Assembly (NCBI GenBank): GCA_900617105.1
Contig: UYFQ01000510.1
Coordinates: 1-64,000, forward strand
Source: Hydrurus foetidus
Lineage: Eukaryota
DNA length: 64,000 bases
Direction: 5' to 3'
Below the pieces are notes generated by a model. The model did no database searches. It had not been told where the DNA came from and saw only the letters and a list, made by a program, of their open reading frames with translations. The position numbers were made by a program, and so were the translations under genes. Below, piece by piece: positions 7,755 through 30,200 of this stretch (position 1 is the stretch's first letter; every line of letters begins with the position of its first letter).

Positions 7755-8005
7755 TAGAAAAGGTTCTTAGCCACTCAGGTGACAAAAAGAAGCCTACGAC
7801 AATGTCATTCAAAGTCAAATGGCTTAATTATGATGACACTCATAATTCATGGGAGCCGTGGAAAAATCTACGGCTTTGTGAAGCACTCCATGAATACTTG
7901 AGGGACAATAAAATGAAACATTTTATCCCCAAAGCACTCCATGAATACTTGAGGGACAATAAAATGAAGCATTTTATCCCCAAGAATCTTGAGGCATCAG
8001 TCTAA
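7742..8005 (+). CDS. Chromodomain at the integrase C-terminus (frameshifted from pol), ending in a 51-bp tandem duplication
   Basis: FVVEKVLSH...FKVKWLNYDDTHNSWEPWKNL is a typical chromodomain; ALHEYLRDNKMKHFIPK occurs twice. Confidence 0.9.
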   Translation: MEFVVEKVLSHSGDKKKPTTMSFKVKWLNYDDTHNSWEPWKNLRLCEALHEYLRDNKMKHFIPKALHEYLRDNKMKHFIPKNLEASV

Positions 8006-8302
8006 GAAGACTGATCTCGAACGTATTATCTTTTGAAGATTTTTCCTAATTTTCCCTCTATGGAGGTTTTATGGTTTTAGTCAGTAAAAATCTGACATAA
8101 TTACGTATCGAGGCCTCGGGCACATGTACTTACGTACTAGGCACCACTTTTCTCGTCGACCGACCCACCACCGTTTACATTTTGTAAATATTTTTATTAT
8201 ATTTTTCATTTTAGTTTTCGTTAAATTTTCTTTTCCTTTCTTAGTTATTATTAGTTATTATATTTTTAAACGTGGTGGTCGCGTCATAGATTAGATTTCT
8301 CC

Positions 8303-8325
8303 AAAAAAGAGATAAGTGGGGGAAA
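8303..8325 (+). other. Polypurine tract of the Gypsy element
   Basis: AAAAAAGAGATAAGTGGGGGAAA immediately 5' of the 3' LTR. Confidence 0.85.
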
Positions 8326-8533
8326 TGTGGTCGTACCGGGTATACCGGGCCTACGGGCCGTACCGGACCTTGTCACGATCCACCCGATCCTTCCGCCTAC
8401 AGTACATATACAGCCCTACCACGACTAGCTAGCTAGCTGCAGCCTACTCGTAGAAGTTACCTAGCTTCTAGCATAGTCTGTAACCTAAGCACCACCCGCT
8501 CTTCTACCCATCTTCTTCTCTATCAGGACTACA
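8326..8533 (+). repeat. Gypsy 3' LTR
   Basis: Identical to 1741-1948. Confidence 0.96.
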
Positions 8534-9136
8534 ATGACAATGAGAGTATTCTACTCTGAGAGTTTCCTGGACTGCTTTCAGCAGACACGCGTGGCACTCA
8601 TTGGAGCAACGGATCAATTAAAGCTAGTACCTGATGATCTTATTCAACATTCGATGGAAGGTTGTTTGGAGCGATGGGGCGCATCGGTCCAGACTGAACG
8701 GCGGTCACGGTCATTTCCGTAGCTCACGATGCGAACACCGTCCGGCTGTGCGATCCTCCTATCAGCCATGATGGGCGCGATGGTGCAGAGCCTGTGTGGA
8801 GACAAGGTTCTCCTACAAGACCTACACTTTAGAACGTATGTCAAGCCCGCCCTCGCACTCACCCCTCGCAAGGCAACTGGGACACCCAGCACTGCCGCGG
8901 TGAAGAAGGAGGTCGCTGGCCCTAAGGCGAGCGCCATCTGCTCCTATCATGTGTTGGCACACTTTGGAGTCAAGAATGAGAATGGAAAGCTAGAAGTGTG
9001 CACCCGAGGAGCATCCTGTCCTAAGGAACACTGTGACATATCTACCGTTGCCAAAGCGGATGTCTCCGCTGCTCTCAAATGGTTACCTGAGAACTTCCGG
9101 GAGGCAGCTTTGAAAAAGATGAGAGCCAAGGTGTAG
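8534..9136 (+). pseudogene. 3' part of the YR-element gag-like ORF with Cys/His zinc-finger-like motif (one internal stop at 8720)
   Basis: ORFs 8534 and 8729 are in the same frame; CSYH...CTRGASCPKEHC. Confidence 0.65.
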
Positions 9137-9271
9137 GATGCGAGTGGTTGCACTCTGCGGAGTCAACCACAAGACAAGCAATTGAACCCTGATCGAGATG
9201 GGGCGGCACCAGGTGCGGGCGAAGACCCAGGGAAATATGAGGGGTTTATAAAGGGAGATGATTTGGCTTTA

Positions 9272-9559
9272 CCGCACGTGCAGCGGCCATCTGAGAAAGG
9301 CACCTGGAGAGATCCTTCTTCGACATCTGCCCACATGCAGACACCTGATGGGGAGGAATTAACGAGGGGGCACGGCATGATGCTTGCCCACATGCAGGAA
9401 TTGATCGGAGTCCATTCACAGTTAGAGTCCGACGAGGTGTTGGTCCACATGCGAACACCCGGTGAAATAAAGGGATCTGATATGATGACTGCCCACATGC
9501 AGTCATCCAGCAGACATGAAGGGGGGACTCCTCTCGAGACATTGCCCGCCTACATGCGG
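9272..9559 (+). repeat. Six regularly spaced copies of a ~12-nt motif (consensus GCCCACATGCAG) with dissimilar spacers
   Basis: Copies start at 9272, 9329, 9386, 9443, 9491 and 9548 (spacing 57, 57, 57, 48, 57 nt); encode xHMQ/R in the pol frame. Confidence 0.75.
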
Positions 9560-9831
9560 TCACTAGAGGAGGAGAGCAATCTAAAGTGCACAGAGGCGGC
9601 TTCCATACGTGAGATAATGGCCACCATGGCATCGTATTTTGCACCAGGGGAAGTGTTCCCGTTCGCGGAACTTGTCGAAACCGTCAAGGATGCGCAGGAT
9701 ATGGCAGCCACAAACTATGGTGTGACTGAAGCTGTAGAGTGGGCGCAGGGGTACGAATTTCCGGAGGACATGCTTACGAATGACCTGAAGTCTTTCAAAG
9801 AAGCAAATTATGACTTCACGGATATGGTGAA

Positions 9832-9937
9832 AGTGTGACACTGCATTGGGCTCTCTAGGTCGGCGTCTCTCCAGACTACAAAAGCTTTTGTAGTCTGGAG
9901 AGACGCCGACTTAGAGAGCCCAATGCAGTGTCACACT
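9832..9937. repeat. 106-bp loopless palindrome (53-bp arms, one mismatch)
   Basis: AGTGTGACACTGCATTGGGCTCTC...CAAAAG|CTTTTG...GAGAGCCCAATGCAGTGTCACACT, centred between 9884 and 9885. Confidence 0.95.
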
Positions 9938-10112
9938 GCTCCCACTCATCTTCCCCTCGAAGAAGGTGTCTCACGGCTCTTGCCTGTGCAGATCACAAAT
10001 AAGGCCCACATGGAGAGTTGAACCCGCGACTCTTGTCTGTGGAACCGCGGGCACATGGGACCGAAGCTCTACCAAGTGTACAAGAAACGTTTCTTAAACG
10101 TTATAGTGTACA
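9834..10112. mobile_element. 279-bp non-autonomous insertion (solo-LTR-like or MITE-like) with TG..CA ends and AAAG target-site duplication
   Basis: AAAG at 9830-9833 and 10113-10116; ends TGTGACACT / AGTGTACA; removal restores the RT frame. Confidence 0.85.
10005..10080 (-). promoter_or_regulatory. tRNA-like RNA polymerase III internal promoter (A and B boxes)
   Basis: Minus strand TGGTAGAGC (10074-10066), then GTCGCGGGTTCAACTC about 40 nt later (~10030-10015); no full cloverleaf evident. Confidence 0.55.
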
Positions 10113-11951
10113 AAAGCTAGATTGACATCATTGCAGTCTAGCCGGCTGAATCTGAGGCGCATCAGTAGATTGACATCCGATAACCCGGAACTTGGGCTGC
10201 TGCGTGACTTAGCCGTGGGAATGCGTGTCCCTATACCGATTGGCTTCAAACCAAATGGTTCAGGCGCGTTGACACCGCTCAGTGCCTCTTATCTTAAGGT
10301 CCATAAAGCGGTGAATAAGATGGTAGCTGAGACTGTGTCAAGTGGTCTAGGGTTTCTGTTGCCGAAAGATCTAGCTATAGAGACCATCCCTAGGCTTCAC
10401 CTGTGCACCGCCCACTGGGCACAGAAGAAGGGCAAGAAATCCGGACGACCAATATGGGACATGACGTACGTGGATGGAACAGCGCTCAACACTGAAGAAG
10501 CTACCAAGGAAGCGGAGGAATACTATGGGCCCATCCATCATCCAACCATAGATGACATAGCAGTCATGATAATGGATTTCTTCACGGCGCATGGGGCGAA
10601 CCACTCTGGAAAAGAATGGAGCGATCTGAGAATATGGAAAATGGATTTGAAAGGAGCATATACTCTCCTGTCGTTCCGACCAAACGATGTCAGCCTCTTC
10701 GGCATGGAAGTAACAGGCGACCTGATCTACTTACAACTATGTGGTATATTTGGTTGGGCATGCACACCAGCAGCGTTCCAGATCGTGACAAGGGCATTAA
10801 AATGAGAGTTTGGCCGAGCTCTTAGGAGCTCTACGGAGACGTACGTGGACGACGTAATAGGCGTGTGCTTCGAATCTGACTTGACATCTGATATGGCACT
10901 CGCCAAGGACATCTGCACTAGCCTTCTGGGGCCCAATGCAGTGGCCGATGAAAAGTCCGAGACAGGGAGACGACTCGAAGTCATAGGCTACACAATCGAC
11001 TTGACCCTAAAACTAGTTTCAATCGCGCGGAAGAACTTTCTCACAGCGGTTCACGGCTTTATGGCTATTGACTTGGACGGCAGAACTTCCTTGAAGACCA
11101 TGCAAAAGTTGGCATCATGGGGTAGTCGATATGGACGCATCTGTCGACTCATGCGTCCCTTCTGCGGAGCGCTGAATAGGGCGATTGCAGGCAGGCTAGA
11201 TCGCCACGCGACATTTAGTCTCGCGGAAGAAACGAAAATAGCCATCAGATGCTGGTGAGCAATCTTATTCCTCGTTCGCTACAACGAGCAACGATTCACT
11301 CGACCCCTCGCATCATTCAAAAGTGGTGTGGCAGAGTACATTGTCGAGACGGATGCATCACTGCACGGGGCAGGATGCCTCATCTATCGACGGAACCGCG
11401 ACTCGGAGGTATGTGAAGGGGCCAGTGCGGTAGATCTCCGATCACTCGGCTTCACGACTGAGTCAAGATTTCAGAATGTGCGCGAGTTCATCGGCTCGAT
11501 AGTTGGAATACTGGGGTTAGTGAGATTAGGTGTAAAGAATGTGTAAAGAAATTTGCGGAGATAGGATATCTGCACTCACGTGGGCTCAGAAAGAGAAAAC
11601 CCGTGGGATGCAGGTATCGAACGCAGCGATGGTGTACACTCTAGTCTGCGTGTCATACGGCATAGAGGCCAAGTTTGCGACTCATATCTCTGGGGAGGCG
11701 AACTTTCGATGTGACCAGCTCTCGAGAGTATCAGAGTCGGGAAGGACGGTAGACGAAGTCTTAGTGGGTCTAGGGTTGGGAGGGGCACAGAATCTTAAAC
11801 TGGATCAGGACAGTCGGGTGCTACAGCTGATAGAGAGCTGTCGCCCTTGCGAGCCTTTTAAAAATGAAATCGACTTCATAACATTTTGGCATAGGATAGT
11901 CGAGACCATAGCCTCATAGACATCCACATCGCACTAACATCCTCATCCACT

Positions 11952-13164
11952 GTGTCCCTAGACTCCCTCGCCCCTTATTTCTTTCCAGGGCTTCCGCGCC
12001 AATTACCGGAGCTTAGCAGCGCAGGGGTAGGGTTGTTCATAGCGCACTCGGTCACAGCGGCGACAGCAAAGTCATACGAAGGGCACTGGATCAAGTGGTG
12101 CAGGTTCATCAACGAGGACCTAGACAGCGAGGACCCCCTGCTAGGCGAATGGTTGGAGAAAGACAAACCGGCCATAGTATGCCTCTTTCTACAATTACGC
12201 TATGATGAGGGTATGCGGGGGAAGCAGGCCTCCTCTGTCACTACAGGGATCCGACTGAAATTTGCAGCGGCTCTTAGGTCAACGACTTTTCTGGATTCAG
12301 CGATTGTAACGGCGGCATGCACTGCATGCCGCATGACCACGAAAGAATGAAGGACCCAATGAGAGCGTGAAGCTGCCTCTGTGTGAGAGCTTACTGAAGG
12401 ACTTGAGGGCAAAGCTCTGGGCCGGCAGAGGGTGGGAGCGAAAGGATATTGATTGCAGGATGACCTACATCGGGTGCATGTGGGGTTACGACATGGATGC
12501 TAGAATATCCGAGTACACCGCCCATGAGGTGGGAAATGAAGACCACTATGTAAGGTGTAGCGATCTGGTAATCGGGATCAGAGGTGCTATGGATAGCTAC
12601 CAAGTAGGGGGCGGGTCGTCTTTTTTAAGGGATCTAAGGGAGGGGAGAGCATCAGCTTCACATGTACTGGGGTTCCGAGTACTTACCGCGTCCCAGGAAA
12701 CGGGTGCACCCGTGAAGGCCAAGACAGTTGGTAGACGATCGCCGGAAGAGAGTCAGTTTTTAGAAGATCTGGTAACGTTCATAGCTTTCTCAAAGGTATT
12801 GCAATCAGATGAGCTGTTCTGCCGATATCTGGAACGGCGATGAGGAAAAGTCGACAGGAAACGGCTTCAGGGTAGGATGGTGAGAGAGGCGGTTAAGGGA
12901 GTGTGTCGCGATGCTGGACTACCGGCGGAATATTTTTCATCGCACTCTCTTCGGAAAGCAGCGACAACACAGATGAGAGCTATGGGAGTTTCATAGCTAG
13001 ACATGATCGATGGAGGGAACTACGTCGAAGGGTCCAAGATCATGACAGCCGTCTACGATTACTCTGCGGGAGGACATCGGCCACTGTCGTCGAACTCTCT
13101 TGTCGGAGGTACTCAACCTAGTAAGGACGACGTGAGAAGCTGGTTGCCCTTTGGGGTAGTATGA
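11952..13164 (+). pseudogene. Tyrosine recombinase of the DIRS-order element (stops at 12348, 12841, 12994; frameshift near 12360)
   Basis: Core-binding-like TAKSYEGHWIKW; catalytic R in ARISEY; FSSHSLRKAATT; GNY..SKIMTAVYDY read through the stops. Confidence 0.88.
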
Positions 13165-13278
13165 GTGTTGCTTTGAGTCCTTCGGGTGGGGTGGGGGGAA
13201 GGAGTCATCACAATCCACATTAGAGAACCTTCTAGAAGTAGGAGACACTTTCCCCGTGCTCACAAGAGTGAACCCCAA

Positions 13279-13756
13279 TGTAAGATTACAAAACATGTCG
13301 TATGAACCAGCTTCTGTGGTGCACACGTACGCGTAAGAACTGTGCCAAGCTTTGCTACGGGTTTTGTGAGCAAACTAAGAGGTCGGGTACGTGCGCGTTC
13401 GTTGGTGTACATACTCAGTGCTGTATGTGAGGATCTTGGGTCAACCGTACTTACGCGAACGTACGAATTAAGACAGTGGAAAGTGTTGTATGTTGCATAC
13501 GTAGAGCTGGCGTTGGTACGAGGTGTATGCACGTACGCGACACTTCCATGAACATTGTCTTGAGAGTAACACTTTGGATGTGTGTGACCGAACGTATATA
13601 TACATATCATGTTTGTGAACTGTAAACTTCGTGAACGTCATCAGTGATGATGCTACACAAGTTTTAATGACAAGTATCTGATCGTATAAGTCATTTTACG
13701 AGCCTTGAGAAGATTTCCGTATACCGAGTCATTCGAGAAATCACGATATCTCAACA
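13279..13756 (+). repeat. Probable 5' LTR of Copia 1 (3' end at ...TCTCAACA 13756; start uncertain)
   Basis: TATA-like TATATATA near 13595; CAACA end 26 nt before the gag ATG, mirroring Copia 2 (25 nt); no second copy in the window. Confidence 0.6.
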
Positions 13757-13782
13757 CATTAAAACTACGAGGAGCCATTGTG

Positions 13783-16700
13783 ATGCCTCCAAAACGTGCA
13801 GTAGAATCAAAGGATGTGCCAGAATGCATTCTACGCATCGGCAAGTACAACAACGTTGTAGCATGGAACCTAGAGATGCGTTCCGTTGTTGGCACCCTGT
13901 ACGGGACAATGTGGGATACGTCCCGCCCTATCCCAGGGAGGAGGACTACATGCCGATCAATCCAGACCTAGCTGACGGGCAGGCACCCCCGTCATACCAG
14001 CAGCGCTCATAACGAAGCTTAGAGAGGACTGTTTTACCGGTAGGCGCAAGGACATAGCGCTACAGCGTAAGGACGAACAGAAGATCTGGTCGAACATGTG
14101 GACACGAATGTCACCCGCGTCGCAAAGCAAAGTCCAAGAAGAGCCAGGCTACGCGAACGCTCTACTCGCACGAGACTGCGTAATGCTGTGGGAGTTCATC
14201 AGGCGCACTCATCTTACTCACATCTACGGAGATGGTGATCCGATGCTGGCTCTGAACATCCAAGACCAGGAACAACGATACAATGCTATCAAACAAGGGG
14301 ACAAAGAGTATGTCTCCAACTTCAAGCTGCGATTCGACGCACAGGTACAAGCGTGTTTAGGTGCGGGGGTGACCAACGTCACTGAACCGAAGCGCGCACT
14401 GGACTTCATATATAAATTGGACCCAAAGAGATTTGGAAAGATGTTGGCGTTCATGAGGAATAACGCGCTGGTTATGGAAGGAGAAGCATTCCCGCAGACC
14501 CTAGGGGCCGCATGCCGCATAGCATCCGGATGGGTAAACGAGGATACCGGTGGACCCCAGATCCCCGGATTTGAAACCCACGCTGCGTTCGTCGCTGAAA
14601 CAGAATCAAACCTGGTAGCAAAGTCCAAGGACCATGAAAAGGGAAAACGAAGTACGACTAAAGGAGACACAACTCCAAAGAAGAAATCATCAACGGATGT
14701 GGAATGCTTCGTGTGTGGCGAACTCGGCCACTACGCGCGAGACTGCCCGGCAAAGAAGAGTTCAGCGCGCGTCCTCGTCGCAGCAGCAGAGGCTGAGAAC
14801 GGAAAACGATATGGAGAATCCGACGATGAAGAAGAATATTGTGACGAAGTTGCCTACATCACGTCCAGCGAAACGGTGTTGTTCTCCCGAGACGATGTGC
14901 TACTTGATAGTCAGGCGTCGGTCAACGTATTCTGCAACGAGAAGCTTCTGCGCAACGTGAGGAAATCAGAGAAGCGAGTCGTGCTTAATGGAGTCCAGGC
15001 GAGAGCCGATGGGGTAGTCATCAATCTAGAAGGAGAATTCGGTGATGTCGGAAAGGTATATTTCAGCAAAGACTCTACGGCGAATATCTTATCCTACGCG
15101 GTTATGGTCGACCAAGGCAACGACATCAGTTACGATAAGATTAACGACCTATTCCTACTGAAAGCACTAGGAAGCTCGAAGGTATATTCGTTCAGCAGAA
15201 AGCAAGTGAGCGGCAGCGGAGGCCGGTTCTACTGCTGTAACGTCAAATCAATGACGAGCACTCAAGACACATCAAACACTGTAGAAGAGCTCGCGTTGAT
15301 CGAAACGATTGCAGACAACATGCAGAAGTATTCGAAGAGAGAGGTCGAGGGAGCGGATCACGCACGACGACTACTCAGCAAAATGAGATTCCCGTCAATC
15401 AGCCAAGCGATAGACATCATCACACGAGGAAGGAACTTCGACGTGACGGCCAGAGATTTCTTAGTGGCGGATGCAATTTATGGGAAAGATATCGCGTCAT
15501 TGAAAGGAAAAACAACTAAGAAAGCAACGAAGGTGGCTGACATTACAGTGGGCGCAGCAATCGTACAGCAAGAGCAAGTGCTGTCAGTTGACATAATGTT
15601 CGTCGACGGGGTCGCGTCGCTAATCGGGTTGGCAACCCCGCTAGACCTAACCATGGCCGTCTCACTCCTATCGTTCGATACGCTCCAGAGCTCAAGATCA
15701 GCAGTTGCGGTGAAGAAAGGACTCGAAGGATTCATGTCTACATTATCATCAAGGAATTTCGTTATACGTCTGTTTATGAGTGATGGCGAAGGAGCCGTAG
15801 GAGCTATCAAGGATGACCTGAATCTTCTCGGCATAGAAGTCGACGTAAGCGGGGCAGGCGGCCACGTCGCGAGAAGCGAACGAAGGATCAGAACTGTGAA
15901 GGAGCGTGTGAGAGCATATATGTCTCATGAGCTGCCGTTCTCCCTCACTGCGGTTGGAATAGCTATGCTGGTTTTATTCTGTGCCTCGAGGATCAACTAT
16001 CAGACTTCCGAATCGAGGTGAGGTGACGAATGTCCACGAGTAGCTTTCAGCGGTAGACAAGTAGATGCGCTGCTCGACTATAGAATCGGATTCGGGCAGT
16101 ATGCGCAATGCACCGTGGCGAACACAGACCGATCGATGTCTGCTAGAACAGAGGACTGTCTAGCTATGCTACCAACTGAAAACAGAACAGGTTCTGTAAA
16201 AATGATGTCAATCGGTACGGGCAAACTAGTCACACGGGACCAATTCATCATCCTTCCTATGCCCACGTCTGTGATCAACAGATTAAATGAGATGGCTGCA
16301 TCAGAAGGTAGGAAGATCGTCATCAGGAGCGACATGGTGTATGATACAGAAAGCGGATTACGGAAAGCGGACGATCCCACCTACAACAGTAAGATTTACG
16401 GTAGACCAGGAGATTACGGCCAACGGGGTAGATATGGGAGAGGTCTTCGTACCGCCTCAATACTCTTCACCAAATCATCAGAATCTCGCGGACGATGGTG
16501 GACTTGGAGCGGCACACGCCATAGACAATGCCAACGAGAGCTATTTCGACATTCCGGATTTGGATGTTGGTCCGTTGGTAGAATTCGAGCAGTATGTAGA
16601 ACCCAACGCCAATCCAGATGCCTCTATACTGGTGTCACCACCAAGGACTGCTGTCACCCCTACTTACTCGAGATACAATACAACTGCAGAGCCGATCCAG

Positions 16701-18404
16701 TCTGTGAGACAGGATCTGATGGACTATTATAACAACAGCGATGTGCAGACTACTGCCCTTATTGCGCACGAACAGGTGGAGCATCTAATAGAGCACGCTA
16801 TGAACATTACGGTGAAGGAAGCACTGAGAAGTAGGGGTGCCGAAGCTGAAAGGGTAATCCTGAAGGAGCTATCTCAGATGGTAGATAAGAAGGTGTGGAC
16901 ACCCGTACAACTGAAGAAACTTACGAACACAGAAAAAAGGGGAATCGTTCGCTCGCAGATGTTTTTGAAGGAAAAATACCTTCCAACCGGAGTGTTCGAG
17001 AAGCTTAAAGCTAGACTAGTAGTGGGAGGAAATCAGCAGGATAAGGATCTATATGACGACCTCTCTTCCCCAACTGTCTCGACATGTGCGGTGATGACTA
17101 CCTTTGCTATAGCGGCGTATGAAAAGAGACATGTCTCTGTAGTGGACATTACGGGTGCATATCTGAATGCGGACATGAATACAGGAATCATTGTATACAT
17201 GCGTCTCGATCAAACTATGTCGTCAATGGTATGCAAGATCAACAAGACGTACGGAGAGTACCTGGACGACAAGGGGTGTATAGTCGTACGCCTCGACAAA
17301 GCCCTATACGGGTGCGTTGAATCTGCGGCTCTATGGTACGAAAATCTGTCCGATGCGTTGAGTGCAGCTGGATATGTCAAGAACAGATATGAGATGTGTG
17401 TGTATAACAAGACGAATATAAAGGGGATCCAGTGTACGGTGGCGGTACATGTGGATGACCTCATCATATCTAGTATCGATAAGGGCATGATCGACTTCCT
17501 ATGCGAACACCTCCGCATAAGATATGGAATGATCACTCGAGCAGATGGTCCAGTAGTCAACTACCTAGGCATGGTATTCGACCTCACGGTCGCTGGAGAA
17601 GCAAGATTGACTATGAAGGGGTATGTCGAAGATACAATCACGTACGCGGGAGTTACGGGTACGGCTAAAAGCCCAGCAACAGACGGACTGTTTGAGATCA
17701 GGGAAGGTGCTGTGATGGCGAATGAAAAGATGAGAGTGTGGTTCCACAGCGTAGTCGCTAAACTAAGATACCTTGCTAAGCGGGCAAAACCGGAGTGTCT
17801 TACTGCGATAGCGTTCTTAGCCACCAGGGTCACGAAGTGTACTGAAGATGATCTGGAGAAACTAAGACGAGTACTGAGATACATTGCTGGAACGTGAGAC
17901 AACGGAGTCGTGTTCAGACCAGGGGTGTTAAGGATATGTGTGAGAGTATATGTGGATGCAGCATACGGGGTGCATGCTGACGGTAAGTCACACACCGGAA
18001 GTTGTGTCGCCATAGGAGATGTCGGGCCTGTCCATTGCAAGTCGAGTAAGCAGAGTATTGTGACGAAGTCTAGCACAGAAGCGGAGCTAGTAGCTCTATC
18101 AGACTCAGCTAACCAAGGTCTGTACTTGCGTAACTTCTTGAAGGATCAAGGATACAAGATGGGACCTATCGTGATATACCAAGACAACACATCCTGTATG
18201 GCTCTGGTAGACAGAGGAAGATCGGGAGCAGAAAGGACAAGGCACATAGGAATCAAGTACTTTTGGTTGAGCGAGAGGGTTACGAGAGGTGAAGCAGAGG
18301 TGCGACACAAAGGAACAAAGGAGATGTATGCTAACCTGCTTACTAAACCCCTACAGGGAGCACAGTTTCAGCACGAGAAGAAATTACTAACAGGTTGGCT
18401 GTAA
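13783..18404 (+). pseudogene. Copia 1 gag-pol polyprotein with stops (16019, 17895) and frameshifts
   Basis: Starts MPPKRAVES; colinear with the Copia 2 polyprotein; ORFs 14096, 16115, 16287, 17910. Confidence 0.9.
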
Positions 18405-18506
18405 TGCTAACGAAGGCGCCTGACGAATAGGATGATATGCGAGTGATACAACATACGATATCATAAAACGAGTGAAGTATAATCTATGCATACTATTCGA
18501 AATACT

Positions 18507-18817
18507 AGGATCTTTGGGTTCCGAGGTCGTGCACGAACGAGGTAGTACAGTACCGAAAGATCTCAGAGCCAAGGCTTGTAGAATAAGACAACCGTTGTCA
18601 GTAAATTCTTGTTAATTTGACTGTGATGCATCCTCATGACAACCACTAGTCTCTCTTGATGCATCCATGTCTATATATTCCTACACTACGCTTGAAGTAC
18701 AGAACAAATGCACAGGGTCCATACATCTCATTTACGCCACACAAATAGTCCGTACCGCCGTACGGAGCCATAAGTACACATATTGTGTTCGTGTCATAAA
18801 CTACGATACCTCCAACA
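18507..18817 (-). repeat. Copia 2 3' LTR, missing its last 6 nt
   Basis: Matches 23775-24085; terminal TGTTGG (plus strand) is absent. Confidence 0.93.
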
Positions 18818-18883
18818 CACCCCTATGCCACATCACAATTGTTACTATTCACGCATCAAACGTAAGACGTAATGAATAAAATT

Positions 18884-21800
18884 CTATACTATAATGTCGT
18901 CTTCCCACCCGGTGAGTCCATGTCTCTCTCACTTGAACTGGGCTCCTTGCAGAGGCTTTGTCAGGATGTTCGCATACATCTGCTTCGTCCCTAGGTGCTT
19001 CACCACCGCTTCTCCCATGTCGACTCGCTCCTTGAGCCAGAAGTACTTGATCGCAATGTGCCTGGTCCGTTCCGCCGCTGACCGCCCGCGCTCGATGAGA
19101 GACATGCACGACATGTTGTCTTGATACACTGTGACAGGCTCGCACGAGTGTCCTTGTCCTATAATGAAATTTCTCAAGTGTAGTGCTTGGTTAGATGAGT
19201 CAGACAAGGCCACCAGCTCCGCCTCGGTACTGGACTTGGTGACTATCTGCTGCTTCGCCGACTTGCAATGAACTGCACCCCTCTCTCCGACCACAACACA
19301 GCTTCCAGTGTGCGACTTGCCATCCGGGTGCACCCCGTATGCCGCATCGATCACCACGCTCAGCACTATCCCCTTGTTCCCTGGGGCGAACACCAGTCCT
19401 CTGTCTCGAGTACTGCACACGTACTTGAGTAGTCTCTCAAGTTTCACCAGGTCATCCACGCTACACTTGGTCACTCTCGTCGCCAGGAACGCCACCGCTG
19501 TAAGGAGGTCCGGCCTTGCACGCTTTGCCAAGTAGAGTAGCTTCGCAACGTGACGGTGGAATCGCACTCTCTGCTCATCCGTCGCCATGGCTGCGCACTC
19601 CCGAACATCAAACAGTCCTTCTGTGGCGGGTGTTCGCGCTCCTCCGACTGTCCCACTCTCCTTCAGCATGTCTCCCACATACCCGCTCATCGACACTCTC
19701 GCCATACCTGCTTTAGTCATGTCGAAAACCATACCTAGATAGTTAACCACAGGTCCATCTTTGCGAGTGATGTCTCCATACTTCTTAGTCAATCCCGCGG
19801 CTAGTGACTCGATCATGCTACTGCTGATACTAGTGATCATTAGGTCATCTACATGGACTGCACCCCGTATTCATCGTGTTTGTTAAACACACAGATGTCG
19901 TGAGTGTTCGGCACGTATCCCAGCTGTGACAGACTCTCTCGCAAGTTCTCGTACCATAACGCCGCTGATTCCACACACCCATACAGTGCCTTGTCCAAAC
20001 GCACCACGACGCACCCCTTATGATCTGCGTACTCCGAGTACTCCGGTGCAAGCTTGATCATCATGTTGGTCATGTTCTTATCTAGCCTCATGTGCACCGC
20101 AAGTCCCGTCGTCATGTCGGCGTTAAGGTAGGCTCCGCTTATGTCAATAGCAGTGATACTTCGTTTCTCATACGCCGCTATGCATAGTAGAGTAAAGACG
20201 GAGCTTGTCCCGACAGTTGGTGCCGATAGATCATCATACAGTGTCTTGTCTTGCTGATCGCCTCCAGCGACCAGTCTTGCCTTTAATTTCTCAAACTCAC
20301 CACTGGCGAGAAACTTCTCCTTCAAATACATGCTTGAACGGATGATCCTGTACTTCTCGTCTCGAGACAGACCTCTGAGGTCAACCGGTGTCCACACCTT
20401 CTTACTAATCATCTGTGTGAGCTCTTTCTCTATCACACTCACGGCTGCGTCGCCTCTTGTCCGTAGTGCTTCATTCACGGAGATGTTCAACACATGATCA
20501 CCCCAGTCCACTCCGTCACCATCATAGTTCCGAGTCAGTAGTGCAGCTCCACCTTTGCCGTTCCTGAAATAGTTCATGAAATCTTGGCTAGTGACTCGAG
20601 GGTGACGCGGGACATCACTGTTCTTCTCTGCTGAATCGATGTTCGTGCTACCTGTATCGTCCTCCCCTGCGTCTACGCCGTCCACCGCTGTGTAGTCCAC
20701 AGGCACGCCTTGTGCATCGTGTGTTTCTTCGCTGTCCTCTTCTCGAACAAATCTTCCTGCATCCATGCTTTTGAAACTGTTGATGAGTTCTTCCATGTCG
20801 CTCAGCTTCTGTTTCGCAGGCACATTCAATGGAACGATCGCATCGTCGCAATAGGTAGACTGGTTCAGGTCTGGGAGGTAGTCTGTTACATCGTTTCCTT
20901 CCTCCTGCTGCTCATCCGGAGTATCGTTGACGACATCAGTACGGTCATCGCTTTCGAGTACTGCTACCGAAGGGTCTATTCCGTTGTTCACAGTGATTTC
21001 TATCGTGTCAGACAGTCCTCTCTTGGCATCACTGTCCTGCATGTAAGATATCGGTCTGGTCTCTAAATCCCCTTTTCCCTTCACTCTCCCATCCGCTAGT
21101 GCGAGTTCATTCAGTCGCTTGATTACAGACTCCGGCATGGGTAGTATTTGGAACTGATCGCGATTGACTAGTCTCCCAGTTCCCAGCGATAGCATTCTCA
21201 CAGTACCAGTTCTGTTCCCCAGAGGGAGCATAACCACGCAGTCCTCGGTTCTTGATCTTAGTGTGCTATCTGTGTTTGGCACAGTACATTGCGCGTAGTC
21301 GCCGAATGAGCATCTAAAATCTCGCTTCCCATCTGGCTTCCTTCCAATAAAAGCTTCTCACGGGGTGGGGCCCGATTCCCGTAAACCACCCGGCTCATAG
21401 TTCAGCCTTGATACGCAGTACAGTACGCACATCGAGATACCCACGGTCGATAAAGTAAAAGGTAGATGATGTGCGACGTGCGCTCGTACTCTCTCCTTAA
21501 TTACACGAATCTTTCTCTCCATTCTAGCAACGTGTCCTCCGGCACCGCTAATGTCTACTTCCACGCCGAGCCTCCCCAGCTCGTCGACAAGGCTGACGAC
21601 TGCTCCCTCTCCGTCGCTCATGATCACGGACGTCCGAAAATTCTGTGATGCGAGCACCGCCAAGAAATGATTGATTCCCTTCCTGACTTCTGCTGCCGCC
21701 CTCGATGACTTCTTCGACACGATGTTATTCAAACTGTATGCGATAGTTAGACCAAGAGGAGTTGCAACCCCGATTAGTATAGCCAGCTTTTCAATAAACA

Positions 21801-23743
21801 TAATATCGATTGATAGCACCTGATCTCTTTGAACAATCTTGGTGCTGACTGTGATGTCAGCTGCGTCTGTCGATCTCTTGACTGTCTTTCCTTTTACGGA
21901 AGCGATGTCTTACGGAAGCGATAGCATTCTCACAGTACCAGTTCTGTTCCCCAGAGGGAGCGTCGGCAATCTGGAAGTCCCTAGCAGTAATCTCGAAGTT
22001 GCTCCCAGTATTGACGATCGACATGGCCTGTTCCACTGTTGGAAATCCCATTCGTGCTAACATCTCGCGGGCTCGTCGAGCCTGCTCAATCTCTCTCTTA
22101 CTGAAGGCTCTGGAATTCGCTGCTACCGTTGTCACTAGGGCAGTATCTGCGTCGACCTCTCGCCAGTCGCACGAGTAAAAGCGACCCTCACTTCCTTCAA
22201 TCTGTTTCCTCCCGAATCGGTAAGTCCGCTCGCTACCCTTCGGCTGTAGAGTGAAATAGTCTCTCTCGTTATCGTAATTGATAGTGGCTCCCGCATCCTT
22301 CTGTGACGCGAAGGATAAGATGTTGGCCGAAGCCGATCCACTGTAGAACACAGTGCCGAGCTCCCTGAAATCTCCTTCACGGTCGACTGTCACGCTGGTA
22401 CCCAGCTGAATACCGCCGACTTGAATGGACCTTTCCGCTTTCCTTATCCCGGTAAGTAACTCAGCGTTGTTGAAAATGTTTAACGAAGCCTCGTTGTCTA
22501 GAAGGACGTCATAACGAGAGAAGCAGCATTTCTCACCCGACGCTACAAGTGCTAGCCCCCACTCATCTTGCTCACTCAGATCTTCATCGTTTGGTTCCTC
22601 CACCGTTACGTGGGCTTTGGCCGATGACGATTTCGATTTCCTTTGTGGGCAGTCTCGTGCATAGTGGCCCATCTCCTCACACAGGAAACATTCTACTACA
22701 GTTAACGGTTTCTTCTTGGCCCCACCGGTCTTCCCCGCTTTCTTCTCAGGAGGGTCCTTAGATGCGGTGACGAGTGCGCTGTCTGTAACGTATGCAGCGT
22801 TCGGAGCACCGGGTGTGGGTGTGTACGGGGCGGCATCTCCGCCGCTCCAGCGGGATGCTATACGGTATGCGGCAGGGAGGGTCTTAGGGAATGCCTCCGG
22901 ATTACGGCGAAGCGCGTCGTTCTTCATGTTGTCGAGCATCCTCTTGTATCGTCGGGGGTCGAGTTTTCCTAGGAAGTTAAGTGCGCGCTTTGAGGCAGTC
23001 ACCGGCGCCATTCCCACAGCGTTATTGGCTGACACTTGTTCGTCGAATCTGAGCTTGAATGAAGTGATCAGTTCTCTCTCGCCTTATCTCATCGACGTGT
23101 ACTTACTCTCTTGTAGGTGTTGGTTGAGCTCCTGCATAGGGTCACCGTCGCAGAACATGTGAGTGAGGTGGGTCTTCCTGATCAGTGTCCATAACAGGAC
23201 GCAGTCAAGGGTCATGTATGCCTCTTCATAGTCGTCCTCCTCTCTAACTCTGCTCTGTGATTCGAGTGACATTCTCTTCCACATCATAGGGTACATCGTA
23301 CGTTCGTTCGCGTATTGTATTTTGATGTCCCGCTTCCTCTGTATGTAATCGTCTTCTTTGAACTTTGTCCTAGACCTTTCAGACAATTTTATCTTTCTTT
23401 TTCTTCTCACCGCCCTAGCCTGACTACGCGCTGCCTTTTCAGCGGCGTAAACTGCGAGTACCGCAGGGTCCTGGGCTGGTAGTTCTTCTTCAGCATCCGT
23501 AGGCTCTACTTCGTCTGCTGAGCTTTCGCTCTCCGACGATGAATCATAGGGATAATCCCTGTATGAAACTCTCGGAAGAACGTATCTCTCATTCGTGGTG
23601 AAGAACATCCCAATGATACCGTAGAGTTCGGTGATGATTGTCTGCATATGTTCTTTCCATTTGATGATGTTGTTTGATTTGCCGTATTGCAGTATACACT
23701 CATCTGGAGCTTTCAACGCTTCTACGGCACGTTTTGGAGGCAT
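18884..23743 (-). pseudogene. Copia 2 gag-pol polyprotein with stops (23084, 21358, 18929) and indels (~21910, ~19855)
   Basis: MPPKRAVEA start; CFLCEEMGHYARDC; LLDNEAS; SDGE; KARLVAGG; ANILTKPL. Confidence 0.9.
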
Positions 23744-23768
23744 TGAAATGCCGATGCCAGTCAAATTA

Positions 23769-24085
23769 TGTTGGAGGATCTTTGGGTTCCGAGGTCGTGC
23801 ACGAACGAGGTAGTACAGCACCGAAAGATCTCAGAGCCAAGGCTTGTAGAATAAGACAACCGTTGTCAGTAAATACTTGTTAATTTGACTGTGATGCATC
23901 CTCATGACAACCACTAGTCTCTCTTGATGCATCCATGTCTATATATTCCTACACTACGCTTGAAGTACAGAACAAATGCACAGGGTCCATACATCTCATT
24001 TACGCCACACAAATAGTCCGTACCGCCGTACGGAGCCATAAGTACACATATTGTGTTCGTGTCATAAACTACGATACCTCCAACA
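23769..24085 (-). repeat. Copia 2 5' LTR (317 bp)
   Basis: TGTTGGAGG...CCTCCAACA terminal inverted repeats; TATA-like sequence near 23940. Confidence 0.95.
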
Positions 24086-24212: not shown

Positions 24213-27200
24213 ATGGCCAGTCTATTGAAGATATTCGTATGGCTGATGACTTCATGGTCAACCATGTCTAAAATCGATATTGGAAGGAATTCGCACCACA
24301 CCTCGACTTTTGATCGCACAGCGCCACAAGAGACAACAATGGAAAAAGCTCTCAACGGAGACAGTTTTCGAAAAAGCAACATTAGAGCTGATGATGGTAG
24401 GCGATGAATTGTTGACAAAAAAATATATGATCGTAGAATGATTACCCTGCCACATTTCCCTCCTACTTTACTATCAATGAACTAGAAAGAATGACTTACA
24501 CAATTTGAATCCATAAATCGTTTCACATAGCAGGCAGTCGTCGTGGGTTGATGACAACCTACTATCCCATTGGCGTGCAATACAATACGACACTTTCCTT
24601 CATCAACAGCTATTGCACACCGTGCCTGTACGTCGACTATTATCAGGCCACCAAGTCTACCGACATTTTTGGATGCAGAGGACCTTATCTATTCGTTGGT
24701 GCCATAAAGAAGGGAAAGAGTGTATTTCAATTAGGTGGCTTCAGTCCGGTTGATGTGATTCGCTCTACAACCCTTCTTAATTCACCGGCTCTCTCGAATG
24801 GTATATACTGGTACTTTACTAGCGGTCACTCTTTCGGGTTCGCAGATAGTCCCACTATCAATCAGAACTACGCCGATTCAGCTATCAATCCTGACCCTTT
24901 CTCCCGACTCTCATGGCTGATTGATTCAACTGCTGGTGGCGACCGCGCAGGGACCTCACTACATGTCAAGAGCGGGGAATTCTTCAAGGTTATCTACAAC
25001 TGCCCTGAGAAATATCAAAATTCCCGTCTTCTGTCAGAGCTGCCGTTCCAACCAGCATATGCTCCAACCTATGTTCTAACAAATACTTCATCAACGCCCA
25101 CAACTCAACCTAGTCAAAAATCAAGTGGCAAACCGACAGGACAGCCAACAAATAAACCCTCTGGACAGCCAACCAATGTGCCAATAGCCCAGACCACGAT
25201 GCAGATTACGGAACAGCCGACCTCATTGCCAACAGGGCGGCCAACGATGCAGCATACTGGTCAGCCAACGGTGCGACCGACGGGACAGCAGACTTCACTG
25301 CCAGTACCGACAATTAAACACACTGCTCGACCTACTGGTCAGCCAACGATGCAGCCCACCGATCAGTCGATAGAGCAGCTTACGGGGCGGCCTAACGTTC
25401 GTCCAACAGGCCAGCCAACATCTTCACCAACGGGAAAGCCGACATCTCTTCCAACAAGTATACCGACAAGTCATCCGACATCACTTCCAACAAGTATGCC
25501 GACAGGTCATCCCACCGGTCAACCGACGACGGAACCCACATCTTCGCCGTCTGGTCAGCCTACGATGCAACCTACTGGTCAGCCGACTGGAAAGCCGACA
25601 TCCTTACCGACAGGACAGCCGACATCTGTACCGACAACGCCATCAGGACAACCGACAGGACAACCCTCTGGTCAGCCATCAGGACTACCAACAGGTCTAC
25701 CGACGACGCAGCCTACAGGAGAGCCCACCTCACTGCCAACGAGCCTGCCGACATCTCTACCGACTGGAAAGCCGACATCTCTACCGACATCTTCACCAAC
25801 GAGAAAGCCGACAGGTCTACCGACAAGCATACCGACGTCACTTCCAACAAGTATACCGACAAGCATACCGACAAGTCATCCGACGTCACTTCCAACAAGT
25901 ATGCCGACAGGTCATCCCACCGGTCAACCGACGACGGAACCCACATCTTCGCCGTCTGGTCAGCCTACGATGCAACCTACTGGTCAGCCGACTGGAAAGC
26001 CGACATCCTTACAGACAGGACAGCCGACATCTGTACCGACAACGCCATCAGGACAACCGACAGGACAACCCTCTGGTCAGCCATCAGGACTACCAACAGG
26101 TCTACCGACGACGCAGCCTACAGGAGAGCCCACCTCACTGCCAACGAGCCTGCCGACATCTCTACCGACTGGAAAGCCGACATCTCTACCGACATCTTCA
26201 CCAACGAGAAAGCCGACAGATCTACCGACAAGCATACCGACGTCACTTCCAACAAGTATACCGACAAGCATACCGACAAGTCATCCGACGTCACTTCCAA
26301 CAAGTATGCCGACAGGTCATCCCACCGGTCAACCGACGACGGAACCCACATCTTCGCCGTCTGGTCAGCCTACGATGCAACCTACTGGTCAGCCGACTGG
26401 AAAGCCGACATCCTTACCGACAGGACAGCCGACATCTGTACCGACAACGCCATCAGGACAACCGACAGGACAACCCTCTGGTCAGCCATCAGGACTACCA
26501 ACAGGTCTACCGACGACGCAGCCTACAGGAGAGCCCACCTCACTGCCAACGAGCCTGCCGACATCTCTACCGACTGGAAAGCCGACAGGTCTACCGACAA
26601 GCATACCGACGTCACTTCCAACAAGTATACCGACAAGCATACCGACAAGTCATCCGACGTCACTTCCAACAAGTATGCCGACAGGTCATCCCACCGGTCA
26701 TCCGACGACGGAACCCACATCTTCGCCGTCTGGTCAGCCTACGATGCAACCTACTGGTCAGCCGACTGGAAAGCCGACATCCTTACCGACAGGACAGCCG
26801 ACATCTGTACCGACAACGCCATCAGGACAACCGACAGGACAACCCTCTGGTCAGCCATCAGGACTACCAACAGGTCTACCGACGACGCAGCCTACAGGAG
26901 AGCCCACCTCACTGCCAACGAGCCTGCCGACATCTCTACCGACAAGCATACCGACAGGTCAACCGACATCTACACCGACAAGCATACCGACGTCACTTCC
27001 AACAAGTATACCGACAAGCATACCGACAAGTCATCCGACATCACTTCCAACAAGTATGCCGACAGGTCATCCCACCGGTCAACCGACGACGGAACCCACA
27101 TCTTCGCCGTCTGGTCAGCCTACGATGCAACCTACTGGTCAGCCGACTGGAAAGCCGACATCCTTACCGACAGGACAGCCGACATCTGTACCGACAACGC

Positions 27201-30200
27201 CATCAGGACAACCGACAGGACAACCCTCTGGTCAGCCATCAGGACTACCAACAGGTCTACCGACGACGCAGCCTACAGGAGAGCCCACCTCACTGCCAAC
27301 GAGCCTGCCGACATCTCTACCGACAAGCATACCGACATCTCAACCGACATCTACACCGACAAGCATACCGACGTCACTTCCAACAAGTATACCGACAAGT
27401 TATCCGACATCTCTACCGACAAGCATACCGACGTCACTTCCAACAAGTATACCGACAAGAATACCGACAAGTCATCCGACGTCGGAACCCACATCTCGCC
27501 GTCTGGTCAACGAAGTATGGTCAGCCAAGCACACCAACAAGTCGCCGACGACAGAACCCACAACTTCGCCGTCTGGACAGCCTACGATTCAGCCTACTGG
27601 TCAGCCAACAGGCAGCCGACGATACAGCCTACAGGACAGCCACCAACTGCCAACAACAATACCGACAATGCAGCCCACAGGTCAGCCAACAATGCAGCCT
27701 ACCGGTCAACCGACAGGTATACCGACAAGCATACCGACAAGTCATCCGACATCACTTCCAACAAGCCGACAGGTCATCCCACGGTCAACCGACACCCACA
27801 GCCGACTGGTCAGCCGACGATGCAACCTACTGGTCAGCCGACTGATCCGACACCTTACAGGGACAGCCGACAATGTACAACCCATCAGGACAACCACACA
27901 GGTCAGCCTCAGGTACCAGGTCCCGACGATGCAGCCTACTGGACAGCCACCTCACTGCCAACAGGCCGACATCCAACAAGCAACCGACATCTCAACCCAT
28001 CACACCGACAAGCATACCGACGTCACTTCCAACAGGTATACCGACAAGTTATCCGACATCTCTACCGACAAGCATACCCACGTCACTTCCAACAAGTATA
28101 CCGACATACCGACAAGTCATCCGACGTCACTTCCAACAAGTATGCCGACAAGCATACCGACAAGTCGTCCGACGACGGAACCCACATCTTCGCCGTCTGG
28201 TCAGCCTACGATTCAGCCTACTGGTCAGCCATCAGGCCAGCCAACGATACAGCCTACGGGACAGCCAACTTTACTGCCAACAGGTATACCGACAATGCAA
28301 CCCACTGGTCAGCCAACAATGCAGCCTACCGGTCAACCGACAGGGCATCCGACAGGGCAGCCTACTGTTCAACCGACCTCACTGCCAACAAGCATTCCCA
28401 CGATACAACCCACTAGTGAGCCGACAGGGCAGCCGACAATGCAGCCTACGGGACAGCCTACTGATCAACCAACAGGGCAGCCGACAATGCAACCCACCAG
28501 TCAGCCTACTGATCAGCCGACAATGCAGCCTACTGGTCAACCGACAGGGCAGCCAACGATGCATCCTACGGGACAGCCAACATCACTGCCAACAGGTATA
28601 ACACGCCTACTGGTCAGCCTACTCAGCCAACAGGCAACCGGCAGCCGACAGGTCAGCCAACAGGACAGCCAACAGGACAGCCTACTGGTCAGCCTACGAT
28701 GCAGCCTACCGGTCAGCCGACAGGGCAGCCTACAAAGCACCCTTCTGGTCAACCGACAGGGCAGCCAACGATGCAGCCCACGGGACAGCCGACCTCACTG
28801 CCAACAGGTACACCGACAATGCAGCCTACGGGACAGCCTACTGGTCAACCGACAGGTCAGCCTACGATGCAGCCTACGGGACAGCCAACATCACTGCCAA
28901 CAGGTATACCGACGATGCAACCCACAGGACAGCCTACTGGTCAGCCTACGGGACAGCCTACTGGTCAGCCGACAGGTCGGCCAACGATGCAACCGACAGG
29001 GCAACCGACAGGTCAGCCTACGATGCATCCTACGGGACAGCCAACATCACTGCCAACAGGGATACCGACGATGCAACCCACTGCACTACCAACAGGGCAG
29101 CCCACCGTGCAACCGACAGGCCAGCCGACAGGTCAACCGACCATCCAGCCCACAGGACAGCCAACTGGTCAACCAACTGGTCAGCCTACTGGTCAACCAA
29201 CAGGTCAACCCACAGGACAGCCAACAAGTCAACCAACGATGCAACCCACGGGACAGCCAACAGGGCAGCCGACCACGGAACCTACTAGTCAACCTACTGC
29301 GCAACCGACGATGCAACCCACAGGACAGCCGACAGGTCAACCAACTGGTCAACCAACAATGCAGCCCACTGGTCAACCAACAGGTGGGCCTACCAGTCTA
29401 CCTACGGGTCAGCCTACTGGTCAACCAACAGGTCAGCCTACTGGTCAACCCACAGGTCAACCCACAGGTCAGCCAACAAGCCAACCAACGATGCAACCCA
29501 CGGGACAGCCAACAGGGCAGCCGACCACGCAACCTACCGGTCAACCCACTGCACGACCGACGATGCAACCCACAGGACAGCCGACAGGTCAACCGACCAT
29601 GCAGCCCACAGGACAACCGACAGGGCAGCCGACCACGCAACCTACCGGTCAACCAAGTGGTCAACCAACAGGTCAACCTACCAGTCAACCAACTGGTCAG
29701 CCGACAGGTCAACCAACGATGCAACCCACGGGACAGCCGACAGGTCAACCAACCATGCAACCGACAGGACAGCCGACAGGTCAGCCGACAGGTCAACCAA
29801 CTGGTCAACCCACAGGTCAACCAACTGGTCAACCTACAGGGCAGCCGACAGGTCAACCAACAGGTCAACCCACTGGTCAACCAACAGGTCAGCCTACTGG
29901 TCGACCAACAGGTCAACCAACCATGCAACCGACAGGTCAGCCGACAGGTCAACCAACGATGCAACCCACGGGACAGCCGACAGGCCAACCAACCATGCAA
30001 CCTACCGGTCAACCAAGTGGTAGTCAACCAACAATGCAACCCACAGGACAGCCGACAGGTCAACCATCTGGTCAACCAACAGGGCAGCCCACTGGTCAAC
30101 CCACAGGTCAACCTACCAATCGACCAACTGGGCAGCCGACAGGTCAACCGACCACGCAGCCCACGGGACAGCCGACAGGTCAACCAACCATGCAACCGAC

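What the first reader, a model, noticed from the sequence alone, without database searches (positions are those of the whole stretch)
13595..24085. Candidate self-priming (tRNA-independent) Copia lineage: PBS pairs with the element's own LTR, with compensatory changes between two elements
Seen: neither Copia has a TGG-type PBS. Copia 1 PBS CATTAAAACT (13757-13766) is the exact reverse complement of AGTTTTAATG (13660-13669) in its LTR. Copia 2 PBS TAATTTGACTG (minus strand, 23768-23758) is the exact reverse complement of CAGTCAAATTA (minus strand, 23891-23881). Both LTR motifs lie ~50-60 nt downstream of a TATA-like box, are preceded by GATGCnnCAC and are followed directly by ACAAGTAT, so they are positionally homologous. 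They differ at 5 of 10 positions and every difference is compensated in the PBS. Known: S. pombe Tf1 and related Gypsy chromoviruses prime minus-strand synthesis with the first 11 nt of their own RNA, released by RNase H cleavage, whereas Copia elements are described as using whole or fragmented tRNAs. Inference: this Copia lineage self-primes, independently of or in parallel with Tf1. I am not aware of a described Copia example but could not search the literature.
Basis: partly seen in the sequence, partly recalled or inferred. Interest (0 to 1): 0.88.

Follow-up and report, generated by a model that had tools for sequence, protein, structure and literature searches.

The report
Self-priming Copia lineage in protists
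Two Copia-type jumping genes from a probable golden alga, and most of their relatives in aquatic metagenomes, carry a primer site that matches their own terminal repeat, so they likely start copying themselves with the first bases of their own RNA instead of a tRNA, a trick shown for a yeast element and already predicted for one plant Copia group.

Summary
With LTR ends called blind to pairing, 27 of 40 elements (2 from the window, 38 from metagenomes) have a 9-21 nt perfect reverse complement of the PBS inside their own LTR. Controls give 3 of 1560 cross-element pairs and 0.36% of shuffles. The pairing starts exactly at the LTR end, and close relatives show compensated changes. The LTR tract starts at an initiator-like Y|A in 27 of 27, so it is likely the RNA 5' end. 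Tf1-like self-priming is the best explanation. No start site, primer or cleavage was observed, and the host tRNAs could not be scanned. This is a separate, strongly supported clade on a long stem, away from plant-type Copia. Its independence from TAR is favoured but not established (AU p 0.07 and 0.16; the TAR label is recalled). Both window copies are broken. The scan has noted the same design before in diatom Copia on other DNA; this window adds a probable chrysophyte host.

The parts
13484..13756 (+). Copia 1 5' LTR, 273 bp, TGTTG...CAACA
   Evidence: Contigs of run X1 begin at 13484 and end at 13756, and a loose end places a GGGGTG-type purine tract before 13484 in another copy. The flanking element continues differently behind 13483 in other copies.
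13595..13601 (+). TATA-like run, 65 nt upstream of the tract; role not shown
13657..13659 (+). Predicted transcription start (C|A initiator-like, A at 13657 or 13659); inferred
   Evidence: Sequence; lineage-wide Y|A enrichment at the tract's 5' edge
13660..13669 (+). Copia 1 predicted self-primer, 10 nt
   Evidence: paired with the PBS in the minimum-energy fold
13757..13766 (+). Copia 1 PBS, directly after the LTR, complementary to 13660-13669
13783..18404 (+). Copia 1 gag-pol (Gag zinc knuckle, protease, integrase, RT, RNase H), broken by frameshifts and stops
   Evidence: Pfam zf-CCHC and RVT_2; pieces in three frames against P0009 and motif order
18506..18507 (.). Tail-to-tail junction: Copia 1 has lost its PPT and 3' LTR; Copia 2's 3' LTR has lost its last 6 nt
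   Evidence: contigs of runs X1 and X2 follow Copia 1 up to 18508 and then continue with other letters
18507..18817 (-). Copia 2 3' LTR (2 differences in 311 nt from the 5' LTR; the tract copy at 18623-18613 is intact)
18818..18829 (-). Copia 2 polypurine tract GGCATAGGGGTG
18929..23743 (-). Copia 2 gag-pol, broken by stops and frameshifts; 85-98% identical in its pieces to the intact protein P0024
23758..23768 (-). Copia 2 PBS, 11 nt, directly after the LTR
23769..24085 (-). Copia 2 5' LTR, 317 bp, TGTTGGAGG...CCTCCAACA
   Evidence: a contig of run X9 leaves the window sequence at the LTR's end, 23768/23769
23881..23891 (-). Copia 2 predicted self-primer, 11 nt, directly behind TC|A (predicted start at 23892)
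   Evidence: mean pair probability 0.98; fold

Best explanation
Both elements belong to a large protist Copia clade whose primer-binding site pairs with a tract in its own LTR, and which likely primes reverse transcription with the first 9-25 bases of its own RNA, without a tRNA. Shown: the complementarity, its position flush with the LTR end, its conservation with different letters across the clade, and an initiator-like Y|A at the tract's 5' edge. Inferred, by analogy with Tf1: (1) transcription starts at that A; (2) the RNA 5' end folds onto the PBS across a loop of about 50-200 nt; (3) the element's RNase H cuts at the 3' end of the paired tract to give a 3'-OH; (4) RT extends it from the terminal CA of the LTR to make minus-strand strong-stop DNA. 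The two copies in the window are broken and could only be moved in trans.
For: Blind test: 27 of 40 elements have at least 9 nt of perfect complement in their own LTR (19 at least 10, 13 at least 12). Controls: 3 of 1560 cross-element pairs, 0.36% of 12000 dinucleotide shuffles, 0 of 40 for same-sense matches. The signal peaks at shift 0 from the LTR end (27) and falls to 2 at shift -2 and 0 at +15. All 27 first 9-mers are different, and none has TGG in the first 8 nt. Relatives with matching flanks differ in the tract and stay perfectly paired: L027a/L027b 4 of 9, L022/L025 2 of 9, L063/L028 2 of 9, L076/L078 1 of 14. On a MAFFT alignment of 6 close elements, 93% of cells pair and 8 of 10 pairs change on both sides; 0 of 500 shuffles reach this, and slid controls pair 20-42%. 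Y|A lies within 1 nt of the tract's 5' edge in 27 of 27 (background 40%), CA in 22 of 27 (15%), TCA in 14 of 27 (5.6%); a TCA-type initiator is proposed for diatoms (PMC4686930 passages). The helix has mean pair probability above 0.5 in 22 of 27 predicted leaders. Copia loci with tRNA-type PBSs reach at most 6 nt of self-complement. Tf1 mechanism: PMC7175516 passage.
Against: No transcription start, primer, strong-stop cDNA or cleavage was observed. The host tRNA set could not be scanned, as no genome is held. 13 of 40 failed the blind test; 9 were rescued only post hoc by moving the LTR end or the anchor, and 4 stay unresolved (L021 partial; L036, L038, L072). The duplexes are AT-rich (19% GC) and some are weak (-5 kcal/mol). 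For Copia 1 the mean pair probability is only 0.43 in the longer leader and the fold z-score is -0.9. In 9 of 27 the likely +1 A lies just outside the duplex, and Copia 1 may have 1-3 unpaired 5' bases, whereas Tf1 pairs its first 11 bases. No common U5-leader stem was found (2 of 27). The shuffle control does not keep relatedness.
Confidence: 0.85

Rival explanations
1. The 5'-end/PBS helix is real but structural (it masks the PBS, or serves packaging or strand transfer), and the primer is still a host tRNA or tRNA half that displaces it.
For: Host tRNAs could not be scanned. Copia lineages use several half-tRNA primers (PMC6317226). 4 of 27 PBSs fit a strict half-tRNA pattern.
Against: 4 of 27 is near the 9% chance rate, both positive controls pass, and neither window PBS fits. 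There are 27 different PBS 9-mers, none with TGG, whereas tRNA-primed lineages use one or a few tRNAs. Close relatives change 2-4 of 9 PBS bases in step with the LTR, which a fixed tRNA partner would not allow.
Confidence: 0.07
2. Self-derived priming, but not by the Tf1 route: the primer comes in trans from the 5' end or the 3' R region of a second genomic RNA, or is released by a host nuclease instead of the element's RNase H.
For: The tract is also present in the 3' LTR. Duplex length varies from 9 to 25 nt and the loop from about 50 to 200 nt. No shared accessory stem was found.
Against: The intramolecular helix dominates in 22 of 27 predicted leaders, and the geometry equals that of Tf1 and Tj1.
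Confidence: 0.06
3. The match is a by-product: chance among AT-rich tracts, or copying of the PBS into the LTR by template switching, with no function.
For: The tracts are short and AT-rich. A relaxed cross-element search reaches 10 nt in 3.8% of 1406 pairs.
Against: The blind nulls are 0.2-0.4% against 27 of 40. The position is fixed at the LTR end, the partner sits at an initiator-like site, and changes are compensated.
Confidence: 0.02

Closest known systems
Tf1/Tf2 of Schizosaccharomyces pombe, Tj1 and the Tf1/sushi group (Ty3/gypsy)
   Same: PBS next to the 5' LTR, complementary to a tract in the LTR that is the RNA 5' end; no tRNA-type PBS (PMC7175516 and PMC4600332 passages).
   Different: These are Ty3/gypsy elements; the window elements have the Copia order PR-IN-RT-RH and RVT_2. 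Tf1 pairs its first 11 bases and RNase H cleavage is shown; here duplexes run 9-25 nt, some leave 5' bases unpaired, no shared U5 stem was found, and nothing is shown experimentally.
TAR lineage of plant Ty1/copia (includes Houba and Osr-1)
   Same: Copia superfamily; self-priming predicted from a match of at least 10 nt between the PBS and the LTR in 89% of 203 elements (PMC6317226).
   Different: TAR was described from plants; this host is probably a chrysophyte. The clade here sits on a long stem (100/100) apart from plant-type Copia, including two loci that I label TAR-like from a recalled RT motif. The AU test does not reject joining them (p 0.066 and 0.161).
CoDi elements of diatoms (CoDiI and CoDiII lineages; Blackbeard, Surcouf)
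   Same: Stramenopile Copia lineages described as distant from Ty1 and Copia proper (PMC2806351 passages). Earlier notes of this scan report the same PBS design in diatom Copia.
   Different: No named CoDi sequence was available, so membership is untested. The paper's main text does not discuss primer-binding sites (its one 'PBS' is a buffer, and it has no 'tRNA'), and its Additional file 1 is an image that I did not see.
Fungal GalEa Copia elements with a Conserved Hairpin Site
   Same: Copia elements without a tRNA-type PBS (PMC5445492 passages).
   Different: There the site is a conserved 9-nt palindrome that pairs with a downstream tract, and the authors found no complement in the LTR. Here the partner lies upstream in the LTR and the sequence is free to vary.

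Membership tests
Ty1/copia LTR retrotransposon | LTRs with TG...CA ends and a polypurine tract | tested here: met
   (Copia 1's 3' LTR is deleted in this copy)
Ty1/copia LTR retrotransposon | Domain order Gag-PR-IN-RT-RH with an RVT_2-type RT | tested here: met
Ty1/copia LTR retrotransposon | Target-site duplication | not testable with these tools
   Both elements lost their 3' flank at the 18506/18507 junction
Tf1-type self-priming (works like) | PBS flush with the LTR end and complementary to the element's own LTR | tested here: met
   27 of 40 blind; nulls 0.2-0.4%; covariation
Tf1-type self-priming (works like) | The complementary tract is the 5' end of the transcript | tested here: inconclusive
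   Initiator-like Y|A in 27 of 27; no mapped start site
Tf1-type self-priming (works like) | No tRNA complementary to the PBS | tested here: inconclusive
   No TGG in 27 of 27; strict half-tRNA pattern 4 of 27 against 9% chance, neither window PBS fits; host tRNAs not available
Tf1-type self-priming (works like) | RNase H cuts the RNA duplex to release the primer | not testable with these tools
   Needs biochemistry; RNase H motifs are present in both elements
Tf1-type self-priming (works like) | Accessory U5-IR-like stem (known to me only from a paper title in reference lists) | tested here: inconclusive
   U5-leader pairs in 2 of 27 minimum-energy folds; the primary paper is not held
Tf1/sushi group (membership) | Ty3/gypsy domain order (IN after RT-RH) | tested here: not met
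   Integrase precedes RT
TAR lineage (membership) | Self-complementary PBS in a Copia element | tested here: met
TAR lineage (membership) | RT/RH clusters with TAR among plant Copia lineages | tested here: inconclusive
   Best trees separate the clade from L093/L094; AU p 0.066 and 0.161; the TAR label is recalled, and the reference FASTA of the paper was too large to read
TAR lineage (membership) | Plant host | tested here: not met
   Nearest named relatives of two neighbouring host genes are Paraphysomonas (59%) and Ochromonas (58%) and Mallomonas (49%)
CoDiI / CoDiII (membership) | RT clusters with named diatom CoDi elements | not testable with these tools
   No named CoDi protein among the 120 listed of 808 hits or in 10 clusters; the atlas did not answer
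Fungal GalEa CHS (membership) | Conserved palindromic 9-mer with a downstream partner and no LTR complement | tested here: not met
   The partner is upstream in the LTR and the sequences vary

The most novel reading that the evidence does not exclude
A deep-branching Copia clade, widespread in aquatic protists, gave up tRNA priming wholesale and independently of both Tf1/sushi and plant TAR, with a freely evolving self-primer of 9-25 nt. Together with the unrelated locus L088 this would mean self-priming arose at least three or four times in LTR retrotransposons, or is an ancient state kept in this branch.
Probability: 0.6. Interest if true: 0.7.

Novelty: new variant of a known kind. Interest (0 to 1): 0.58.

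Why it matters
Self-priming has been demonstrated in Tf1 and predicted for TAR. A large Copia clade of protists with dozens of naturally compensated primer/PBS pairs gives comparative evidence that the mechanism works with a Copia RT/RNase H. It makes testable whether self-priming is convergent or ancestral, the latter being proposed in PMC3601003. It also shows which primer lengths and 5' overhangs are tolerated. In practice, LTR finders that demand a tRNA-type PBS would score these elements as defective. It is not a new kind of system.

Tried and rejected
No whole genome is held, so genome-wide family collection and a host tRNA scan were impossible; ARAGORN found 0 tRNA genes in the window. 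No RNA holder was listed among 21 runs, so no start site could be mapped; the runs laid were contigs only. Viral contigs: 26 pattern matches, none a relative. The protein atlas gave no answer in five tries, so the clade has no taxon table. A loose half-tRNA loop pattern was uninformative (15 of 27 against 42% chance) and failed one of two positive controls; it was replaced by a stricter test. The first rule for LTR ends was replaced by a rule blind to pairing; rescues after that are reported apart as post hoc. AU tests did not reject joining the clade with L093/L094 or with L088. Primary Levin papers were not held. Sequence and chrysophyte word look-ups among earlier findings gave nothing. The TATA-like boxes were not taken as evidence for the start site: their distances differ (65 and 54 nt), and TATA boxes were not detected in an oomycete (PMC3599244 abstract). 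Rows left out: 38 of the 78 metagenome loci lacked a called PPT or gag start within 800 nt and were not in the blind test. The trees used 103, 44 and 33 rows; L140, L114 and L082 were dropped from the RT-only tree as long branches, and L127 and L141 as too short.
Full report
1. Observation. Both reported pairs are exact reverse complements at the stated coordinates. Copia 2 lies on the minus strand, with LTRs at 24085-23769 and 18817-18507 that differ at 2 of 311 positions, and a purine tract GGCATAGGGGTG. Copia 1 has one LTR, 13484-13756; its ends are supported by contig breaks and loose ends in public runs. The two elements meet tail to tail at 18506/18507, where Copia 1's 3' end and the last 6 nt of Copia 2's 3' LTR are missing. 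Both coding regions are broken, but they keep the Copia order Gag-PR-IN-RT-RH. Neither of the two LTRs reached the observed match length in 300 dinucleotide shuffles.

2. Host. No genome is held. The nearest named relatives of two neighbouring host genes are chrysophytes: Paraphysomonas 59% and Ochromonas 58%, and Mallomonas 49%. The listed holders of the DNA are mostly freshwater, sediment, biofilm and air metagenomes. A chrysophyte host is therefore likely but not certain.

3. Relatives. The RT region found 808 longer proteins, 120 of them listed, with 47-74% identity. In 38 of the 78, a purine tract, an LTR start and a gag start could be called. With the two window elements this gave 40 test cases. 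I called LTR ends by terminal inverted repeat and distance to the ATG only. 27 of 40 then have at least 9 nt of perfect PBS complement in their own LTR, against 3 of 1560 cross-element pairs, 0.36% of 12000 shuffles and 0 of 40 same-sense matches. The count is 27 at shift 0, 2 at shift -2 and 0 at +15. The longest blind match is 21 nt; L057 reaches 25 nt once its LTR end is placed correctly. Of the 13 misses, 9 were rescued post hoc: L004, L010, L025, L026, L030, L046 (interrupted), L053, L070 and L073. L021 is partial; L036, L038 and L072 are unresolved, and some of these may be wrongly anchored. A relaxed search has a null of 3.8% at 10 nt, so the rescues are weaker evidence. Further loci outside the blind set also show the match, for example L015 16 nt, L043 15 nt, L049, L076 and L078 14 nt, L033 13 nt.

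4. Covariation. All 27 PBS 9-mers differ. Pairs of relatives with matching flanks change the tract and the PBS together: L027a/L027b 4 of 9, L022/L025 2 of 9, L063/L028 2 of 9, L076/L078 1 of 14. On a MAFFT alignment of six close elements, in which L001 is misaligned and was kept, 93% of 60 cells pair and 8 of 10 pairs change on both sides. No shuffle of 500 reaches this, and slid partners pair 20-42%; the shuffle does not keep relatedness. In Copia 1's own family, public contigs show C>T at the first PBS base (13757), and one loose end shows the matching G>A at the end of the tract; that both lie on one contig is only my inference from the depth sums.

5. Is the tract the RNA 5' end? A Y|A step lies within one base of the tract's 5' edge in 27 of 27 (background 40%), CA in 22 of 27 (15%) and TCA in 14 of 27 (5.6%). 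A TCA-type initiator is proposed for diatoms (PMC4686930, passages), and an initiator occurs in oomycetes and a non-oomycete stramenopile (PMC3599244, abstract). Folding from that A, the 5'-end/PBS helix is in the minimum-energy structure of both window leaders and has mean probability above 0.5 in 22 of 27: 0.98 for Copia 2 but 0.43 for Copia 1. This is inference; no start site was mapped.

6. tRNA rival. None of 27 PBSs has TGG in its first 8 nt. A strict anticodon-stem-half pattern fits 4 of 27 (chance 9%), both positive controls, and neither window PBS. Copia loci from another branch with TGGTATCAGAGC or GGTTATGRGCCC sites show at most 6 nt of self-complement. The host tRNA set itself could not be scanned.

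7. Position in the Copia tree. The elements form one side of a branch with support 99 (103 rows) and 100/100 (44 rows of RT; 33 rows of RT-RH), on a long stem. The trees are midpoint-rooted. L114, which I recognise from memory as yeast Ty1-like, joins the stem, but it is a long branch. L093 and L094, labelled TAR-like from a recalled motif, fall among plant-type loci in the RT tree; L093 is unplaced within the outgroup in the RT-RH tree. The AU test does not reject holding them together with the clade (p 0.066; p 0.161). Independent origin is thus favoured, not shown.

8. Literature. Neumann et al. 2019 (PMC6317226; passages, section 10 and Additional file 5 read) predict self-priming for Copia TAR (89% of 203) and gypsy Tcn1, and cite an earlier proposal for Houba and Osr-1 (their reference 62, seen only as a list entry). 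Their per-element table and FASTA were too large to read and may bear on the comparison. Fungal GalEa elements lack a PBS but have no LTR complement (PMC5445492, passages). The Tf1 mechanism is taken from review and Tj1 passages (PMC7175516, PMC4600332); the primary papers were not held. The CoDi paper does not discuss primer sites in its main text (PMC2806351, passages). PMC3601003 proposes hairpin priming as ancestral (passages). PMC10886601 has no 'self-prim'. In the listings of nine searches I saw no report of self-priming Copia in stramenopiles or other protists. I read only the papers named here, and subscription journals and Repbase/GyDB entries are not covered.

9. Earlier notes of this scan. 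Eight notes in at least three other genomes describe the same design in diatom Copia. They are unchecked AI notes and are not counted as support. I looked them up after the blind test. No look-alike by sequence and no chrysophyte note was found.

10. Verdict. The feature is real and lineage-wide, and Tf1-like self-priming is likely (0.85). The mechanism is known and was already predicted in one Copia lineage. What is new is a separate, large protist clade with variable primer length and direct covariation. New variant of a known kind; interest 0.58.

Noticed in passing
L088, reversed orientation as, about 1900-1975: A Copia of another branch, grouping with the half-tRNA-Met element L115 and with L091 (99/96), has a 14-nt PBS complementary to its own LTR, starting flush with the LTR end, with a TATA-like box about 27 nt upstream of the tract. 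It may be a further independent self-priming Copia; single element, host unknown.
   Followed up: partly
window 1741-8533 (+): Ty3/gypsy element with identical 208-nt LTRs whose PBS position holds a 10-nt palindrome (ATAGCGCTAT), with no TGG and no complement in the LTR. Priming unexplained; it recalls the palindromic site of fungal GalEa.
   Followed up: partly
window about 8700-13483 (+): Degenerate element with RT-, RNase H- and tyrosine-recombinase-like pieces (DIRS-like by my reading of the translations; no Pfam hit for the one RT-like piece rescanned). Copia 1 is inserted into it at 13484; its high depth in runs suggests many copies.
   Followed up: partly
window 9832-9937: Near-perfect 106-nt inverted repeat (98%) inside that element's RT-like region; possibly a small hairpin insertion.
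   Followed up: no
window 18506/18507: Tail-to-tail fusion of the two Copia elements with loss of Copia 1's 3' LTR and 6 nt of Copia 2's 3' LTR; contigs of runs X1 and X2 continue Copia 1 differently there.
   Followed up: partly
window 24509-34741 (+): Open frame of 3410 codons with a long 12-nt-period PT repeat and a REJ domain, directly upstream of Copia 2.
   Followed up: no
window 21185-21229 and 21917-21961: Exact 45-nt direct repeat inside Copia 2; all four runs show other letters across 21911-21959, so this copy carries a local rearrangement.
   Followed up: no
L004 and L053: The predicted LTR ends read CAACG and CAATA instead of CAACA, yet the 10-11 nt self-complement starts right behind them.
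   Followed up: partly
   Followed up: no
P0114, P0121, P0070: Some polyproteins of this clade carry an extra domain by precomputed Pfam: PF00856 in P0114 and P0121, PF01693 in P0070. From recall these are a SET domain and a caulimovirus-type RNase H1 N-terminal domain.
   Followed up: no
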